From Cyanidioschyzon merolae (lineage: Eukaryota): a stretch of DNA of 64,000 bases. A program made the translations under genes and the position numbers. The notes under the pieces were generated by a model, which was given only the letters and a program-made list of their open reading frames with translations, had not been told where the DNA came from and searched no databases. How positions within the stretch are numbered: position 1 is the stretch's first letter; each line of letters begins with the position of its first letter. The stretch lies in NCBI GenBank assembly GCA_000091205.1, contig AP006497.2. One strand, 5' to 3'. This document shows positions 31,766 through 48,673 of this stretch, piece after piece.

Positions 31766-31820
31766 AGCAAGCCCGTGCGTGGGCGCCACGCCCACCCGCA
31801 AGCTCCGTCGCGCTCCGGGG

Positions 31821-33281
31821 ATGTCTGGTGGTGGATGCCCCGGAACACTCCACCACAGGATGCAGTCCTGCATCGCTTCAAGAGGTCTCGCGCCGGCAGT
31901 GCCGGATCGCAGCCACACCCAAAAAACCCCATTTGTGACAACTGTCTATCGTGACATTCGTGCGCGTGTCAGAACTGCCGGTGATTTGGCGGCAACGCGC
32001 GCCCATTCGGACCTGTTCTTGGCGTTGTTTGCACGTCTTGCGAAAAACATGCCGGACTTTGCGTTCGTCACGACTGTTCATCACAAATTTAACACTCATT
32101 CGCATACCGTCTGTCGTAATAAAAGTAAATCCAGGTGCAGAAAAGGCCTAGCGAACGTCGAAAGCCTACTTGACGCTCACGGAGACGGCCTTGAGCAACG
32201 ACCGACGCCGCAGTCTGTATTGGCGCACAAGGCGCTCCGAGCCGGTCAAGTGGGACTCTCTTCAAGTTCTCGATCAGACTACCAACAAAAGCCGGTCGAC
32301 ACGGACACACCACCGTGTGTGGTCAAGGTTTTCGGCGTTGGCGGTGGCGGGTGTAACGCGATCTCTCGTATGCTGGAAGACGGAGAGTTCCGCGGGGTGC
32401 GGTTCGCTATCGCCAACACAGATCATCAGGCATTGATAGAGTTCAAGAAAAAATACATTTTATATACGCAGAACGCTGTTCTAGAAACAGTTGTTCCACT
32501 GGGTGAAAGCATCTGCAGAGGCCTCGGTGCTGGGGGCAACCCCGAGGTCGGCTGCGCAGCAGCCGAAGAGTCCCACGATCGCATCGCACAGGCGATTGGT
32601 GTCGGGACAGACCTCCTGTTTATTACCGCGGGCATGGGCGGCGGCACCGGCACCGGAGCCGCTCCCGTTGTTGCGCGCATTGCCAAGAGTCTCGGAGCGC
32701 TCACCGTTGGGGTGGTCACCAAGCCGTTCTCATTCGAGGGCCGCCATCGAATGCAGCAGGCCTTGGATGGCGTTGCTGCGCTTCGTGAAAACGTGGACAC
32801 ACTCATCGTTGTCAGTAATGACCGCCTCATGCATGTGGTTCCCAAGAATATGCCGCTCAAGAGAGCTTTTCGGGTAGCAGACGACGTTTTGAAAAATGGT
32901 GTGCGCGGCATTTCCGAATTAATCACGCGACCTGGTCTCATTAATGTGGATTTCGCTGACGTTCGCTCGGTCATGGCCGAAAAAGGCTACGCGCTTCTCG
33001 GATTGGGAACAGGAAGCGGCGAGCGCCGAGCTAAGGAGGCAGCACTCGCCGCGGTGTCCTCGCCACTGCTTGATTTCCCTCTGAACAGCGCAAAAGGCGC
33101 AGTGTTCAATATTTGCGGTGGACCCGATATGACGCTCAGCGAAGTGAACCAGTGTGCGGAGGTCATATTCCAGCATCTGGATCCTGACGCGAGCATCATT
33201 TTTGGGGCAACGGTGGATCCGACGCTTGGGCCGCGCGCTGATATCTCCGTTACTGTCGTTGCGACCGGGTTTGCGTCCTAA
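31821..33281 (+). CDS. ftsZ: cell-division GTPase FtsZ (organelle-division type) with long N-terminal extension
   Basis: VKVFGVGGGGCNAISRM...GLGAGGNPEVG...LLFITAGMGGGTGTGAAPVVARIAKSLGALTVGVVTKPFSFEGRHRMQQALDGVAALRENVDTLIVVSNDRL is a canonical FtsZ core with the tubulin signature GGGTGTG. Ends ...ISVTVVATGFAS with no conserved C-terminal tail peptide. ~170 aa precede the core. The track ORF starts with GTG inside repeat A; first ATG is at 31821 and the start is uncertain. Confidence 0.85.
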   Translation: MSGGGCPGTLHHRMQSCIASRGLAPAVPDRSHTQKTPFVTTVYRDIRARVRTAGDLAATRAHSDLFLALFARLAKNMPDFAFVTTVHHKFNTHSHTVCRNKSKSRCRKGLANVESLLDAHGDGLEQRPTPQSVLAHKALRAGQVGLSSSSRSDYQQKPVDTDTPPCVVKVFGVGGGGCNAISRMLEDGEFRGVRFAIANTDHQALIEFKKKYILYTQNAVLETVVPLGESICRGLGAGGNPEVGCAAAEESHDRIAQAIGVGTDLLFITAGMGGGTGTGAAPVVARIAKSLGALTVGVVTKPFSFEGRHRMQQALDGVAALRENVDTLIVVSNDRLMHVVPKNMPLKRAFRVADDVLKNGVRGISELITRPGLINVDFADVRSVMAEKGYALLGLGTGSGERRAKEAALAAVSSPLLDFPLNSAKGAVFNICGGPDMTLSEVNQCAEVIFQHLDPDASIIFGATVDPTLGPRADISVTVVATGFAS

Positions 33282-44235: not shown

Positions 44236-45204
44236 TGTTCGTGAAACGTACGACCAAATGCGTTCACAACCATAAGTCCACTTCTAATGCATAGTTCTCG
44301 GGGAAGACTCTTTTTTTACGTTCTTGTTTCGTACCGCACACCAGCGCCCTGTTCACGATCGAGCGTCGAGGGCGCGCGTCGCAACTGGAGAACGGCACCG
44401 ATTCGCGTACCGCATGGGGGTATCTGACGCGTCCACAGCGCTGTGGTATGGAGAGTTTGCATGTTCGTGATGTGCATCGCTTCGGATCGGTCATGAACTG
44501 TGGAAGAGTTATGAATTGGTTCAGCGGAATAGATTACCATTTGGATTTGATTAAAAAAAGCGGTGAAACCTGCGCACGCTTCACGGATTGGAACGGGGAA
44601 ACGAGCGAGAAATACGTGCTGCAGCGGGAGCGCGCTCTCCGCGACAGCCTCTGCTGGACGACGTCGATGGTTGCTTCAGAGCTTGCTGCGAACAGCTGGG
44701 AGTACTTTCAATCATTGTCTGGTGATTTTGGTTCGTCATTCACGGTAGGGTCTTGTTGGACGGCGCAAACTTGGACCCGCAATGCCACGGATGAGCCGCG
44801 GGAGTGTCGACCGCGTATCCAGGTGCCGGTGAGGGTATACCCAATGGAATGCTGCAGCTCGAGCTGTCATGATTGCCCCGCATACACTATCAAGATAAGA
44901 TCCGCCTCAGCGCGGTGACTTTGGAGCTGTATGTCTCGCTATACCCGTGTCAAATGAAAACGGGATACTGGATCGATCGCTCTGGTCCTTACCTGAGCGT
45001 TGCCCAACTTTTTCAGGCGTTTAGCCCTGAAATTCGAAATGCGATCAAAAAATTCCTATTCATTTATACCATGTCGTATGATTCTCGGTCGTCTTTTAGA
45101 CATGTCAAGTGCGACGCGGTGCCACTGGGTTTCATCGCTTCTGCTTCCTAACAAAGATTCGCAACGACGATGAGCACGGGTTCGTAAATTGCCGACGTCA
45201 TTCT

Positions 45205-45838
45205 ACAATGCATGCGTGGAAGTCTGGATGCTTCTCGTTTCCTGAAGTGCGGTCTGCTCCAATCTTGCATTCTCCAAATGTTCGGTCTTTCTGTTCTCGA
45301 CGACGTCGTGGCCCGGCGACTTGCTTATTTGCTCATGACGCACGTTGACTGAACTTTTCGCTTCAGCGAATGATCGATTCGGTTTAGGAGACGAACCCTC
45401 CTATCTTACTGGTCATCGACGAGGCGGCATTCGACAGCAGCCTGCTGCCTCTCACATGACACGCCCGCAGACAGACCCGTCTCTTCTGTTTCCATGGAGA
45501 GAGGCCTCGTTCTCGGACCTGAATCATCCCAGCGATCGCCCGCGGTGGAGCGTACGTCAACGCTTTCCACGCAGGTAGGGTAGACGAAACGAAATTTCTC
45601 GCCCAGGTTTCCCGCCTGAGTTTTATTGCGATTTCTGATGCCATCATGATGAACATCGCGTTCCACAAACCTCGATCGAACCGAGGAGCGTGCCCGTGCT
45701 TGTGCAGCGGACTGAGCGCCTACCGAGGACTCTCGCCCGGAGGGTGCTCGATATTGTAGGGTACGGTGCCGGGCGTGGAAACGGAGGATTGCAACACCGA
45801 CAAGCATCCGTACCCGTCAAGCGCACAGCCCAAGCGGT
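45205..45838 (+). repeat. dispersed repeat family A, copy 2
   Basis: See copy 1 (31125..31765). Confidence 0.85.
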
Positions 45839-46943
45839 TAGACAATCGCTGTTGCGCCGCATGGTAGAGCGCCATGCAGATTCTGTGTGGTCGACACATG
45901 CAAACACCTGACCAGAGTCGAACGTTATCCCTGCGAAGGGCATACCAAGATCGTTAGCCGAGAAGATGGAATATGGCAAGCGAAGCATAGTTCGTAATTT
46001 GTGCCTATGCATGAAATGCAGCAACAACAGCTGGAAAGCAGCAAGATCAGGAGTTCAAGGTAGCTGCCAATGGCCTTCGACTGCCAACACCAGAGCTGGA
46101 ATGCCAGGAGGAACCGTCGTCGTTAAAACAGGCGATAAGAGAGAGGAATAGGAAGCAGTCACAGAAAAAGCCCGCAAAGGCTGGTGTTGTTGATACTGGG
46201 AAGCGACCCAAACTTTAGAGCGTACGCCCGTGTCAGGTAAATGGGCCCGTCGCATTTCATTCTGACCTGGACGTGTAGCAGAAACGGATGCGCTGCTGCT
46301 CGAGTTCGATCCCGACGACGACGATGGAGGTTTCGCTATGCATCGAGCTTACCCCATCCGCAAGCGTCATCGCTTGCCTGGTCCAGCTGACTACCACGGA
46401 CACGCAGCAGCTTCAACGTGCGCTGCAGCAGCGAGGCGCCACCTATCGACGCTTGCCCAGGAGTAGTATTGCCCCGACGCCGGACTCGGGTGTGCGCCCG
46501 TGGCCAGACCCTCGAGTGCGCGCACCGCCTCCCGACACATGCCCAGGAGCAGCGGTGCCTTGTCGTTGCACGCGTGTGTGGACCCGCGCACTGCCATCCT
46601 CCTGGTCGACGGGTGCCTGATTTCCTCCAGATTCCTTCGGTGTCGAGCCATGAGATGCACAGTACGTGAGCTCGTCACGTAGGCTCGGATTCCCGGACGC
46701 GTCCAGCTACGGAATTCTCCTGACTGGCGAGACCACCGGGGAATCCGCGTCTTACGTCCAGGCCAAGTAGGCGATCTGCGCACATCCGTCGTCCAAGTGC
46801 TGCGCAGCAGGCGCATGCCCAGTCCCAGTTTATCGGTTATCGTCCCTCGAACCAGACATCGTTTTCACGAATGCAAATTCACGAGCATGCGTTTATCACC
46901 GAGCATTCGTGCGCAGAATTCATGGAAGTGTCACGAATGGAGC

Positions 46944-47722
46944 TCACGATGCACGTGAGCGAGGTTTAATCATTCCTGTCCGACGAGCGTACTCGAACAG
47001 ACCGCCGGCATCAATGACAGGCTGGATTTCACCGAGCGGCTCCAGTTCGAAACGCTGCCCGCTATTGAGATTCCGTATGCTGAGGGTCTCAAAGTCAATC
47101 ACGGCCTCATCTCCGGTCTTAAAGTGCTCAACTAATCTCGTCTTCGATACCCATGGATACAGCTCACCCGTCGATGAGCAGTTGCGGAAAAAAATACGTG
47201 CGTATGAGGTCGCGACGACCGCCTTGGCACCGGCCGCACCAAGAGCAATAGGTGCGTGCTCCCTGGAGCTTCCGCAACCAAAGTTCTCACCTGCAATAAT
47301 GATGCTATACTTTGTGGATAACTGTCCTTCTTCAACAAAACGCTCGGGATAGAGCTCTCGAGGAAGACCTTCCAACGCGTGGGAGCCAAGCAGTTGATAC
47401 TCTGCTGGCACCGATGGCAGCAAGCTCAGGTGCTCAGCGGGGATGATTTGCTAATTTGCACGTGAATAGGGTTAGTATCTGTTATACAGCCTTCATGCAC
47501 CCAGGCAAACAACTGCGTCTGCTGTTTTTAGACGATTCTCCGCCAACTGAAGCCGTCCACCCAAACCCCTGCACCGGTTTAAGAGCGGCAACCGAGTGCA
47601 AACGGCGATAATTCCACAAAACTTACGTCTGTATCAATGTTATCGTGAACAACGAACACACGTCCTTGAATGTTACCCGTCTCTGGATCGCGTTTCCGAC
47701 CAACAGAGCAGACGTCCTCCAT
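46944..47722 (-). CDS. leuD: 3-isopropylmalate dehydratase small subunit-like (LeuD / aconitase swivel domain, short ~200-aa type), two exons: join(47722..47627, 47450..46944)
   Basis: Exon 1 (47722..47627) encodes [32 protein letters not shown], the LeuD N-terminal GRVW.FGDNIDTD box. Exon 2 continues [18 protein letters not shown]...[42 protein letters not shown]... (LeuD/aconitase-C fold) to TGA at 46944. The ORF-track entry 46944..47423 starts with TTG, not ATG, and has no in-frame ATG; the splice restores a proper start. Confidence 0.7.
47451..47626 (-). other. spliceosomal intron (176 nt) of the LeuD-like gene
   Basis: On the minus strand: donor GTAAGT (plus-strand ACTTAC at 47621-47626), branch TACTAAC (plus-strand GTTAGTA at 47471-47477) 24 nt upstream of acceptor ...AATTAG (plus-strand CT at 47451-47452). 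Joining exon 1 to exon 2 reconstitutes the conserved DNIDTD|QIIPA motif. Confidence 0.7.
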
Positions 47723-48673
47723 TCGAAGCGGAGCGGGCGTCTCCATTCGCACGGTAGCCCGACGAGAACAGCCCCTCGAGCGGTAACCAGCCAAACCAGG
47801 AAGACGAGGCGCGGAGCACCTCCCGAGAGCGCTGCTCCTTGCTCTGGTCCCCTGAACAACCACAGCGTTCGAAAAAACGAAAACCATTGTGAACCTTGAG
47901 CTTGTTTTCTCCGAGAACGTTCCTCCGGGTGTCGCTTCGTCCCCAGAGCGTATTGACCGTCGCGCGGGGCAGCGACACCGCGCTGCGCTGTCGCGGGAGG
48001 TCACCCGTGGAGCGCTCACACTCCGAGGCACTAGGATCGTACACCTGCTTTGTACACCAAGAGCTTGAACCGCTTTGGAGCTGGGAGCGTCCTCGGTAAG
48101 CGTCTGAGAATAGAAGACGCTGCCTTGGTATACGACGGGTGCAGTGCTCCCGAGCACCATCGCTGGCACTCAAAGGGTGTCGTTTCGCACGCTAGCGTTA
48201 GGGGGGTGTCCATCGCTTGACTTGGTCGTGAGCGGGGAGCGTTCGCTAGAAAACGCTTCATTGGATACTGCTCAGTGCTTTCCTTCTTGAGCGCTAACAT
48301 TTTCGGAGCACGACGCACGCACAAACGGCGATCTGGAGGCTACGCAAGCTCTAGAACGGGAAACCGCTATGGAATGACGAATTCTGACCACATTAGTCTC
48401 TTTAACTTCGCTGGAAGACAAGTTCCCACGCTTTCATGCTTTTTAGGTCCGCGCGAGCGCATGTCCCAGAATCAGCGACCCCAGCGGACTGCTTTCGTTG
48501 CGTCATACGCGGGTCCGCGTGGAAGCGCTGCAGCTGTGCCGCAGCGTAGAAACGCTGAAGAACGAATACTTGTGTGCCGGATCAAGCAAGCGAGTTGCAC
48601 CGTGAATACGCATTTGCATCGAAAAGCGCCTACCCAGCTTTTGTCTGTGGAGAGCGCGAGATGGCCCGGCGGC

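What the first reader, a model, noticed from the sequence alone, without database searches (positions are those of the whole stretch)
46944..47722. Short archaeal-type LeuD-like gene carrying the only demonstrable intron, with yeast-like GTAAGT/TACTAAC/AG signals
The ORF-track entry 46944..47423 has no ATG; its first codon is TTG. Its peptide starts in the middle of the conserved LeuD N-terminal box (QIIPA...). About 180 bp upstream on the same strand a short exon encodes [32 protein letters not shown], ending at a perfect GTAAGT donor. Between the two exons is a TACTAAC branch site 24 nt before a YAG acceptor. Splicing gives a ~200-aa protein with the contiguous DNIDTD-QIIPA motif. This shows the organism uses highly constrained intron signals, which fits the near absence of introns elsewhere in the window. 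The gene is the short stand-alone LeuD / homoaconitase small subunit form, as in archaea and some bacteria, not the fungal fused Leu1.
Basis: partly seen in the sequence, partly recalled or inferred. Interest (0 to 1): 0.6.

Follow-up and report, generated by a model that had tools for sequence, protein, structure and literature searches.

The report
Known spliced LeuD gene, Cyanidioschyzon merolae

Summary
On the minus strand, a 176-nt intron (47626..47451; GTAAGTTT ... TACTAACC ... 21 nt ... TAG) separates two exons. Joining them gives the contiguous DNIDTD-QIIPA motif of a LeuD-type protein.

The spliced product that starts at the upstream ATG (47887, 255 aa) is identical, residue for residue, to XP_005537507.1 / BAM81471.1, [quoted passage not shown]. 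The intron is therefore already in the public annotation.

- **Ortholog:** the Cyanidiococcus yangmingshanensis gene has a 185-nt intron at the same codon boundary with the same signals, but an unalignable interior.
- **Junction:** an environmental contig, 100% identical in both exon blocks to an intron-bearing contig, lacks exactly these 176 nt.
- **Literature:** GUAAGU / ACUAACC / AG is the published consensus of all C. merolae introns.

Two corrections:
- The full protein is a 255-aa precursor with an N-terminal extension, probably a plastid transit peptide, not about 200 aa.
- Its nearest prokaryotic relatives are cyanobacterial (64-68% identity), although it does pass the "LEUD_arch" subfamily model.

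The only mildly new point is that Galdieria and Rhodosorus carry their intron one codon further downstream.

Verdict: already known, low interest.

The parts
47627..47887 (-). Exon 1 (261 nt, 87 codons) from the annotated ATG at 47887 to the codon for D87.
   Evidence: Translation. The 255-aa spliced product exactly equals XP_005537507.1. The N-terminus aligns with red-algal orthologs.
47723..47887 (-). N-terminal 55 codons (MVFVFSNAVVVQGTRARSS...), probably a plastid transit peptide. This is inferred.
   Evidence: The segment is absent from cyanobacterial homologs. Equivalent poorly conserved extensions starting M-A/V-F-V occur in Cyanidiococcus, Gracilaria, Chondrus and Rhodosorus. It is rich in R/S/A with one acidic residue (sequence). 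Targeting was not tested.
47451..47626 (-). Spliceosomal intron, 176 nt, phase 0, between codons D87 and Q88. It contains an in-frame TAA at its 16th codon.
   Evidence: It is missing exactly from contig L006. An orthologous 185-nt intron lies at the same site in L001.
47621..47626 (-). 5' splice site GTAAGT (extended form GTAAGTTT, also found in Cyanidiococcus).
   Evidence: The consensus GUAAGU is reported in PMC8831791 and in bioRxiv 10.64898/2026.05.17.725761.
47470..47477 (-). Branch-site box TACTAACC. The branch A is at 47472, 21 nt from the intron's 3' end.
   Evidence: ACTAACC occurs in all known C. merolae introns (PMC2483917). Cyanidiococcus has AACTAACC.
47451..47453 (-). 3' splice site TAG, the first AG downstream of the branch site.
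   Evidence: The junction is confirmed by L006.
46944..47450 (-). Exon 2 (507 nt including the TGA stop). It encodes QIIPAEHL...[10 protein letters not shown]...[10 protein letters not shown], the aconitase swivel-type domain.
   Evidence: Pfam Aconitase_C at E = 1.6e-16. NCBIfam LEUD_arch above its cutoff. Invariant motif columns in the alignment.

Best explanation
The window is nuclear DNA of Cyanidioschyzon merolae 10D, or a virtually identical strain. The locus is the annotated nuclear gene for the small subunit (LeuD) of 3-isopropylmalate isomerase/dehydratase. It is probably locus CMO094C on chromosome 15.

The gene is transcribed from the minus strand. A single 176-nt U2-type spliceosomal intron is removed using the rigid Cyanidiophyceae signals: GUAAGU, ACUAACC, then the first downstream AG. 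Splicing joins D87 to Q88 and yields a 255-aa precursor.

The N-terminal ~55 residues most likely direct import into the plastid (inferred). There the mature ~200-aa swivel-domain protein would pair with a separately encoded LeuC large subunit, which is not in this window. Together they would isomerise 2- to 3-isopropylmalate in leucine synthesis (inferred from homology).

An unspliced message would stop 15 codons into the intron and give a non-functional 102-aa peptide. Splicing efficiency, reported as low (10-70%) for C. merolae introns in general, therefore limits the yield of enzyme.

The gene is of cyanobacterial descent, so the intron must have been acquired after transfer to the nucleus.
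For: - **Gene model shown.** The spliced 255-aa translation is an exact match to BAM81471.1 / XP_005537507.1 / UniRef100_M1UUE1, '3-isopropylmalate dehydratase small subunit [Cyanidioschyzon merolae strain 10D]', on a 902,900-nt contig.
- **Ortholog.** Cyanidiococcus CCYA04G1225 is 255 aa and 79% identical, and its 953-nt gene does not translate contiguously. Its sequence shows GAC|GTAAGTTT...AACTAACC...CAG|CAA at the same codon boundary. The intron interior is 42% identical, which is effectively unalignable, against 68.5% for the CDS.
- **Junction.** JGI contig L006 aligns to 48152-47627 and 47450-45907 at 99.2-99.6% and lacks exactly the 176 nt. It is 100% identical in both blocks to the intron-bearing contig L010.
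- **Synteny.** The order ThrRS - His_biosynth - PMT_2 - LeuD - SNF2 is the same as in Cyanidiococcus.
- **Family.** Aconitase_C. TIGR02087 scores 120.1 against a cutoff of 108.95. [10 protein letters not shown] and 70+ other columns are invariant against red-algal and cyanobacterial homologs. The best PDB matches are the M. jannaschii IPM/citramalate isomerase small subunit 3VBA (E = 3e-26) and the homoaconitase small subunit 2PKP.
- **Literature.** ACTAACC occurs in all C. merolae introns (PMC2483917). Published ranges are 70-1309 nt for intron length and 10-63 nt for branch site to 3' splice site (PMC10158995). C. merolae has 39 introns, and 85% carry in-frame stops with a 5' bias (bioRxiv 10.64898/2026.05.17.725761). 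Splicing runs at 10-70% (PMC8831791).
- **Locus name.** FtsZ2 = CMO089C = XP_005537502. An FtsZ ORF lies at 31779-33281. By inference from consecutive accessions, this places LeuD at CMO094C.
Against: Nothing contradicts the gene model. The remaining weaknesses are:
- The library type of L006 (metatranscriptome or metagenome) could not be checked. It is junction evidence, but not proven to be RNA.
- Plastid targeting, pairing with LeuC and substrate specificity are inferred only.
- The protein scores below the 'equivalog' cutoffs of TIGR02084 (120 against 246) and TIGR00171 (68 against 116). Only subfamily-level membership is established.
- The name CMO094C rests on accession arithmetic and my memory, not on a table I could read.
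Confidence: 0.96

Rival explanations
1. The motif triple is a chance arrangement, and the two ORFs are the remains of a disrupted gene (a pseudogene). They could also be joined by some other means, such as read-through or frameshifting.
For: The GTAAGT..ACTAAC..AG triple alone is expected 0.5-1.6 times per 64 kb by chance.
Against: - Read-through of the intron hits a TAA after 15 codons, and 176 is not a multiple of 3.
- The precise splice gives a protein identical to the annotated one.
- All family-invariant residues are intact.
- The same intron site and signals are kept in a genus whose CDS is only 68.5% identical.
- A contig with the exact deletion exists.
Confidence: 0.01
2. Translation starts at ATG 47722, as the first reader assumed and as the gene caller did on L006. 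That would give a 200-aa protein without a targeting sequence, which would act in the cytosol.
For: A 200-aa product from that ATG is called on the JGI contig. The conserved core of red-algal homologs begins close to it, at (L)RMEDVC.VGRKR.
Against: - RefSeq and the Cyanidiococcus annotation both use the upstream ATG and give 255 aa.
- Several red-algal orthologs carry an N-terminal extension beginning M-A-F-V that aligns with MVFVF.
- The extension is basic, hydroxyl-rich and nearly free of acidic residues.
- From established knowledge, leucine synthesis in plants and algae is plastidic.
- The call on L006 was made by a prokaryote-style caller constrained by an overlapping ORF.
Confidence: 0.1
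3. Contig L006 is genomic DNA of a natural C. merolae-like variant that has precisely lost the intron, for example by recombination with a reverse-transcribed mRNA. On this reading it is not a spliced transcript.
For: - The library type of JGI sample 3300053658 could not be checked.
- L006 extends 265 nt upstream of the ATG and 1037 nt past the stop, which is long for UTRs.
- It carries no poly(A) tail.
Against: - L006 is 100% identical over 2070 nt to an intron-bearing contig from a sister sample.
- All 10 other environmental contigs examined retain an identical intron.
- C. merolae is reported to hold both spliced and unspliced polyadenylated RNA (PMC8831791).
- Either way, the boundaries of the intron are confirmed.
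Confidence: 0.07
4. The protein is the small subunit of a different aconitase-family isomerase rather than of isopropylmalate isomerase. Candidates are homoaconitase, citramalate/methylmalate isomerase, or a DmdB-type enzyme.
For: - Only the subfamily model 'LeuD/DmdB family' is passed.
- Homoaconitase small-subunit models score nearly as well: NF040604 gives 108 bits.
- The PDB hit 2PKP is a homoaconitase subunit.
Against: - No homoaconitase model reaches its cutoff of 230 bits.
- The nearest homologs are named 3-isopropylmalate dehydratase small subunit in red algae and cyanobacteria at 64-79% identity.
- From established knowledge, plants and algae make lysine by the diaminopimelate route and do not need homoaconitase.
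- Dual use for citramalate-type substrates cannot be excluded.
Confidence: 0.05

Closest known systems
Cyanidioschyzon merolae 10D 3-isopropylmalate dehydratase small subunit, XP_005537507.1 / BAM81471.1 (probably locus CMO094C)
   Same: The 255 aa are identical when the window is spliced at 47627|47450 and translated from ATG 47887. Gene order and GC content (55.8%) fit C. merolae chromosome 15.
   Different: Nothing detectable. This is the same gene.
Cyanidiococcus yangmingshanensis CCYA_CCYA04G1225 (P0001; locus L001)
   Same: It is 255 aa and 79% identical, with the same neighbours. It has one intron at the same codon boundary (D|Q, phase 0) with GTAAGTTT, ACTAACC and AG. The branch site lies 20 nt from the 3' splice site, against 21 nt here.
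   Different: The intron is 185 nt rather than 176 nt, and its interior is unalignable at 42% identity. The base before ACTAACC is A rather than T. The acceptor is CAG rather than TAG.
LeuD orthologs of Galdieria partita / G. sulphuraria and Rhodosorus marinus (L002, L017, L018)
   Same: They belong to the same protein family at about 58-72% identity. Each has an intron interrupting the same DNIDTDQIIPA motif in phase 0.
   Different: Their intron lies one codon downstream (DTDQ|IIPA; CAG|GTA...AG|ATY). Their signals are looser (GTATTG, GTACTG, GTATGG). They have additional introns. Porphyridium purpureum has none.
Cyanobacterial LeuD (e.g. P0060, P0075, P0080, P0111) and the plastid IPMI small subunits of plants
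   Same: They are 64-68% identical over the whole mature region, about 180 aa long and stand-alone. From memory, plant small subunits are likewise nuclear-encoded with transit peptides.
   Different: Cyanobacterial genes have no intron, no N-terminal extension, and lack the red-algal RMEDVC.VGRKR segment.
Archaeal LeuD / HacB small subunits (M. jannaschii 3VBA, 2PKP; P. horikoshii 1V7L)
   Same: They share the short swivel-domain architecture. The NCBIfam subfamily TIGR02087 'LEUD_arch' is passed. PDB matches have E = 3e-26 and 1e-24.
   Different: They are much more distant than cyanobacterial homologs. The segment after DTD reads [17 protein letters not shown] here, against ILPARYL / IIPGPYL in the archaeal proteins.
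Saccharomyces cerevisiae-type introns
   Same: They share the TACTAAC branch box, use of the first AG downstream, and an intron-poor genome (PMC2483917).
   Different: The 5' splice site here is GTAAGT, described as vertebrate-like in PMC8831791. From memory, the yeast consensus is GTATGT. The branch box extends to ACTAACC. The C. merolae spliceosome is reported to lack U1 snRNP (PMC10158995, PMC4829280).

Membership tests
Cyanidiophyceae-type U2 spliceosomal intron | GT...AG termini with the 5' splice site GUAAGU | tested here: met
   GTAAGT lies at 47626..47621 and AG at 47452..47451. The consensus is given in PMC8831791 and in bioRxiv 10.64898/2026.05.17.725761.
Cyanidiophyceae-type U2 spliceosomal intron | Branch-site box ACUAACC, 10-63 nt upstream of the 3' splice site; intron length 70-1309 nt | tested here: met
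   ACTAACC lies at 47476..47470. The branch A is 21 nt from the intron end, and the intron is 176 nt long. The ranges come from PMC10158995 and the motif from PMC2483917.
Cyanidiophyceae-type U2 spliceosomal intron | Removal restores a continuous reading frame and a conserved protein | tested here: met
   DNIDTD|QIIPA becomes contiguous and aligns without a gap to intron-less cyanobacterial homologs. The product is identical to XP_005537507.1.
Cyanidiophyceae-type U2 spliceosomal intron | Conserved position in orthologs, with a diverged interior | tested here: met
   Cyanidiococcus L001 has the intron at the same boundary. Intron identity is 42% against 68.5% for the CDS.
Cyanidiophyceae-type U2 spliceosomal intron | Spliced RNA observed | tested here: inconclusive
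   Contig L006 lacks exactly the intron and otherwise equals the intron-bearing contig L010. Whether L006 derives from RNA could not be checked.
LeuD/DmdB small-subunit family (NCBIfam TIGR02087 'LEUD_arch'; Pfam Aconitase_C) | Score above the curated cutoff of the family model | tested here: met
   TIGR02087 scores 120.1 bits against a cutoff of 108.95. PF00694 scores 61.3 against 22.8.
LeuD/DmdB small-subunit family (NCBIfam TIGR02087 'LEUD_arch'; Pfam Aconitase_C) | Conserved GxGSSREHA loop and stand-alone length of about 160-200 aa (not fused to the large subunit) | tested here: met
   [10 protein letters not shown] is invariant in the alignment. The mature region is about 200 aa. No Aconitase N-domain occurs in the gene or anywhere in the window.
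3-isopropylmalate dehydratase small subunit, equivalog level (TIGR02084 / TIGR00171) | Score above the equivalog cutoff | tested here: not met
   TIGR02084 scores 120.3 against 245.85. TIGR00171 scores 68.1 against 116.25. These models are tuned to prokaryotic clades. The functional name therefore rests on close homologs, not on an equivalog model.
3-isopropylmalate dehydratase small subunit, equivalog level (TIGR02084 / TIGR00171) | Forms a heterodimer with LeuC and isomerises 2-/3-isopropylmalate | not testable with these tools
   No LeuC gene lies in the window. The rest of the genome was not available.
Homoaconitase small subunit (NF040604, NF040625, NF010629) | Score above the equivalog cutoff | tested here: not met
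   The scores are 108.1, 96.7 and 76.5 bits against cutoffs of 230, 230 and 229.
Red-lineage plastid-targeted precursor | N-terminal transit peptide absent from bacterial homologs, with Phe near the N-terminus, basic and hydroxylated composition, and few acidic residues | tested here: inconclusive
   MVFVFS... is a 55-aa extension with one acidic residue. It aligns with the MAFV... starts of other red algae. The Phe motif criterion is from memory. No targeting predictor or experiment was available.

The most novel reading that the evidence does not exclude
The Cyanidioschyzon/Cyanidiococcus intron (DTD|QIIPA) and the intron of Galdieria and Rhodosorus (DTDQ|IIPA) may be one ancestral red-algal intron that moved by exactly one codon. 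That would be a clean, phase-preserving 3-nt 'intron slide' in a lineage under extreme intron loss. A second, less likely novelty is that contig L006 is a natural intron-less allele, meaning intron loss caught segregating in a hot-spring population.
Probability: 0.25. Interest if true: 0.35.

Novelty: already known. Interest (0 to 1): 0.08.

Why it matters
The result matters little beyond confirmation. The gene model and its intron are in the public C. merolae annotation. The constrained GUAAGU/ACUAACC/AG architecture of this alga's few introns has been described repeatedly.

The result is useful as a control. It shows that a reader working from raw sequence located a true intron to the base. 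It also identifies the window as C. merolae chromosome 15.

The one-codon offset of the intron relative to Galdieria and Rhodosorus is a small lead for people who study intron-position evolution.

Tried and rejected
[quoted passage not shown] Stark et al. 2015 (PMC4371933) is not held. The supplement of PMC8831791 holds only oligo probes in the part read and has no hit for 'isopropylmalate'. The 2026 preprint has no supplements held. Text searches for 'isopropylmalate dehydratase small subunit' with Cyanidioschyzon, and for CMO094C, found nothing. The exact-sequence look-up settled the matter instead.
- **Motif statistics.** I tested whether the motif triple alone is statistically significant. 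It is not, with 0.5-1.6 expected by chance.
- **Other introns in the window.** I relaxed the donor to GTRAGY/GTAAG/GTATGT upstream of every ACTAAC. No credible second intron appeared.
- **Non-coding RNA in the intron.** There is no Rfam match. The one weak hit in the region, RT-3 at 45963-46100, scores 19.5 bits against a cutoff of 40.5 and is taken as chance. The intron's fold is no more stable than shuffled sequence, z = -0.62.
- **LeuC partner.** I looked for it in the window and found none among the 19 ORFs of 250 aa or more.
- **P0003.** This probable Cyanidium-like ortholog has a read-through at the same site, but its DNA is not on record.
- **Failed call.** A script replaced it.

Full report
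**1. Observation**

- An ATG at 47722 opens [32 protein letters not shown], which ends at 47627.
- The next bases are GTAAGT (47626-47621).
- TACTAACC lies at 47477-47470.
- The first AG after it belongs to TAG at 47453-47451.
- The frame that follows, from 47450 to the TGA at 46946-46944, begins QIIPAEHL.
- The ORF list shows the downstream frame only as a TTG-initiated 159-aa ORF, 46944..47423.

The intron is 176 nt, phase 0 and 49% GC, against 55.8% for the window. Read-through meets a TAA after 15 codons.

The motif triple GTAAGT..ACTAAC..AG occurs once in the whole window on both strands. Random sequence generated with the window's own first-order (dinucleotide-transition) frequencies gives 0.5 such triples for introns up to 400 nt and 1.6 for introns up to 1200 nt. 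The motifs by themselves therefore prove nothing. The evidence lies in what they join.

**2. What it is**

The spliced protein matches Pfam Aconitase_C at E = 1.6e-16. It also matches the NCBIfam subfamily TIGR02087, 'LeuD/DmdB family oxidoreductase small subunit (LEUD_arch)', at 120.1 bits against a cutoff of 108.95. It stays below the equivalog cutoffs of the bacterial LeuD and archaeal homoaconitase models.

A search of the large protein collection returned red-algal proteins first:
- Cyanidiococcus yangmingshanensis, 79% identity, 255 aa
- Porphyridium, Galdieria, Gracilaria, Chondrus and Rhodosorus
- then cyanobacterial LeuD at 64-68% identity

In the alignment, DNIDTDQIIPAE runs without a gap across the junction, and more than 70 columns are invariant, including [10 protein letters not shown].

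The frame of exon 1 stays open upstream. An in-frame ATG at 47887 adds 55 residues (MVFVFSNAVVVQGTRARSS...). These align with the MAFV... N-termini of other red-algal orthologs and are absent from cyanobacteria.

An exact-sequence look-up then showed that this 255-aa spliced product is identical to BAM81471.1 / XP_005537507.1 / UniRef100_M1UUE1, '3-isopropylmalate dehydratase small subunit [Cyanidioschyzon merolae strain 10D]', on a 902,900-nt contig. The window is therefore C. merolae, and the intron is part of the public gene model.

The neighbours are ThrRS, a His_biosynth protein, a PMT_2 glycosyltransferase, LeuD and an SNF2 helicase. They lie in the same order as around the Cyanidiococcus ortholog.

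An FtsZ ORF lies at 31779-33281. FtsZ2 of C. merolae is CMO089C / XP_005537502. Five accession numbers further on gives XP_005537507. By inference, LeuD is CMO094C, which I also recall as one of the listed intron-containing genes. That recollection is memory, not a tool result.

**3. Independent support for the intron**

(a) Ortholog. The Cyanidiococcus gene spans 953 nt for 255 codons and does not translate contiguously. Its sequence reads ...GACACAGAC|GTAAGTTTCAG...GAAACTAACCGCGTTTTATATTTCACAG|CAAATTATC.... That is a 185-nt intron at the same D|Q boundary, with the same extended donor GTAAGTTT and the same ACTAACC box 20 nt from the acceptor. The intron interiors are unalignable at 42% identity, while the coding sequences are 68.5% identical. 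This is the pattern expected of a functional intron whose only constrained parts are its signals.

(b) Junction.
- L006 aligns to window 48152-47627 and 47450-45907 at 99.2% and 99.6%.
- It lacks exactly 47451-47626.
- It is 100% identical over both blocks to L010, an intron-bearing contig from a sister sample.
- All ten intron-bearing environmental contigs examined carry an intron identical to the window's.

The simplest reading is that L006 is assembled from spliced RNA. I could not check the library type, so I treat it as proof of the junction, not yet of RNA.

(c) Literature.
- Irimia and Roy found ACTAACC in all known C. merolae introns (PMC2483917).
- Intron lengths of 70-1309 nt, branch site to 3' splice site distances of 10-63 nt, and the GUAAGU/AG consensus are reported in PMC10158995.
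- A 2026 preprint counts 39 introns in C. merolae. It reports GUAAGU / ACUAACC / AG as nearly invariant across three genera, and in-frame stops early in 85% of introns (bioRxiv 10.64898/2026.05.17.725761).

The present intron fits all of these.

**4. How it most likely works**

Shown: the gene structure, the splice junction and the family membership.

Inferred from homology and established pathway knowledge:
- The 255-aa precursor is imported into the plastid through its N-terminal extension.
- The mature swivel-domain protein pairs with a separately encoded LeuC. None lies in this window.
- The pair acts as isopropylmalate isomerase in leucine synthesis.

Unspliced RNA would yield only a 102-aa peptide. 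Polyadenylated unspliced RNA is abundant in this alga, with 10-70% of reads spliced per intron (PMC8831791). Splicing is therefore probably a quantitative bottleneck for this enzyme.

The intron carries no recognisable non-coding RNA, and its fold is no more stable than shuffled sequence, z = -0.62.

**5.

- The start codon is most likely 47887, not 47722.
- 'Archaeal-type' is right as a model label (LEUD_arch). The gene's nearest prokaryotic relatives are cyanobacterial, so it is the endosymbiont-derived plastid type.
- GTAAGT is not the yeast donor consensus. PMC8831791 calls it vertebrate-like. Only the TACTAAC box is yeast-like.

**6. Comparison and novelty**

This is the known gene itself, so the novelty class is 'already known'.

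One observation may not have been described.
- In Galdieria partita, G. sulphuraria and Rhodosorus marinus, the intron that interrupts the same motif lies one codon downstream (DTDQ|IIPA; CAG|GTA...AG|ATY), also in phase 0.
- Porphyridium purpureum has no intron.
- A probable Cyanidium-like ortholog (P0003) shows an annotation read-through starting right after DTD, which suggests the C. merolae position.

This may be a 3-nt slide of an old red-algal intron, or two independent insertions. I could not resolve which.

**7. Verdict**

The finding is ordinary and already annotated, so the interest is low.

Noticed in passing
window 47627|47450 compared with L002 (G. partita), L017 (G. sulphuraria), L018 (Rhodosorus marinus), L003 (Porphyridium): The intron in the DNIDTDQIIPA motif sits before the Q codon in Cyanidioschyzon and Cyanidiococcus. 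In Galdieria spp. and Rhodosorus it sits after the Q codon, 3 nt downstream and in the same phase. Porphyridium has no intron. This may be a one-codon intron slide or independent gains.
   Followed up: partly
L006 (JGI 3300053658) compared with L007-L016; window 45907-48152: Environmental contigs 98.5-100% identical to this locus exist in many JGI samples. Ten retain an intron identical to the window's. One (L006) lacks it precisely, yet is 100% identical in its exons to the intron-bearing contig L010. The library type is unknown.
   Followed up: partly
window 44236-46943: A 2.7-kb stretch without a convincing ORF lies between the LeuD stop and the start of the SNF2 helicase gene. In Cyanidiococcus this gap is about 0.75 kb. 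Contig L006 runs 1037 nt into it, which suggests a long 3' UTR or an unannotated transcript. The only Rfam hit (RT-3, 45963-46100) is far below its threshold.
   Followed up: partly
window 46892-46895 (minus strand): TAAA lies 49 nt after the LeuD stop codon. It matches the UAAA poly(A) signal motif reported for C. merolae (PMC8831791). This is unverified.
   Followed up: no
window 53069 (+ strand), within the ORF-poor gap 50.8-54.1 kb: This is the only other ACTAACC in the window (TAACTAACCG, first AG 20 nt from the start of the ACTAAC box). It has no GTAAG-like donor within 1.3 kb upstream. It is probably chance, but a non-canonical donor, as reported for CMQ163T, was not excluded.
   Followed up: partly
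window 31779-33281 (+): This ORF has Tubulin/FtsZ and FtsZ_C domains. It is probably the plastid-division gene FtsZ2 (CMO089C), which helps place the window on C. merolae chromosome 15.
   Followed up: partly
window 48160 (minus strand), upstream of the annotated ATG at 47887: A further in-frame ATG about 270 nt upstream keeps the frame open. Environmental gene calls of 193 aa start there. It is not conserved in the Cyanidiococcus model, and contig L006 begins downstream of it. It is probably 5' UTR.
   Followed up: no
window 15507-15900: This is a trinucleotide-repeat stretch. It encodes runs of L/C on one strand and S/A/Q on the other, upstream of the NIF-phosphatase ORF (15906-17618).
   Followed up: no
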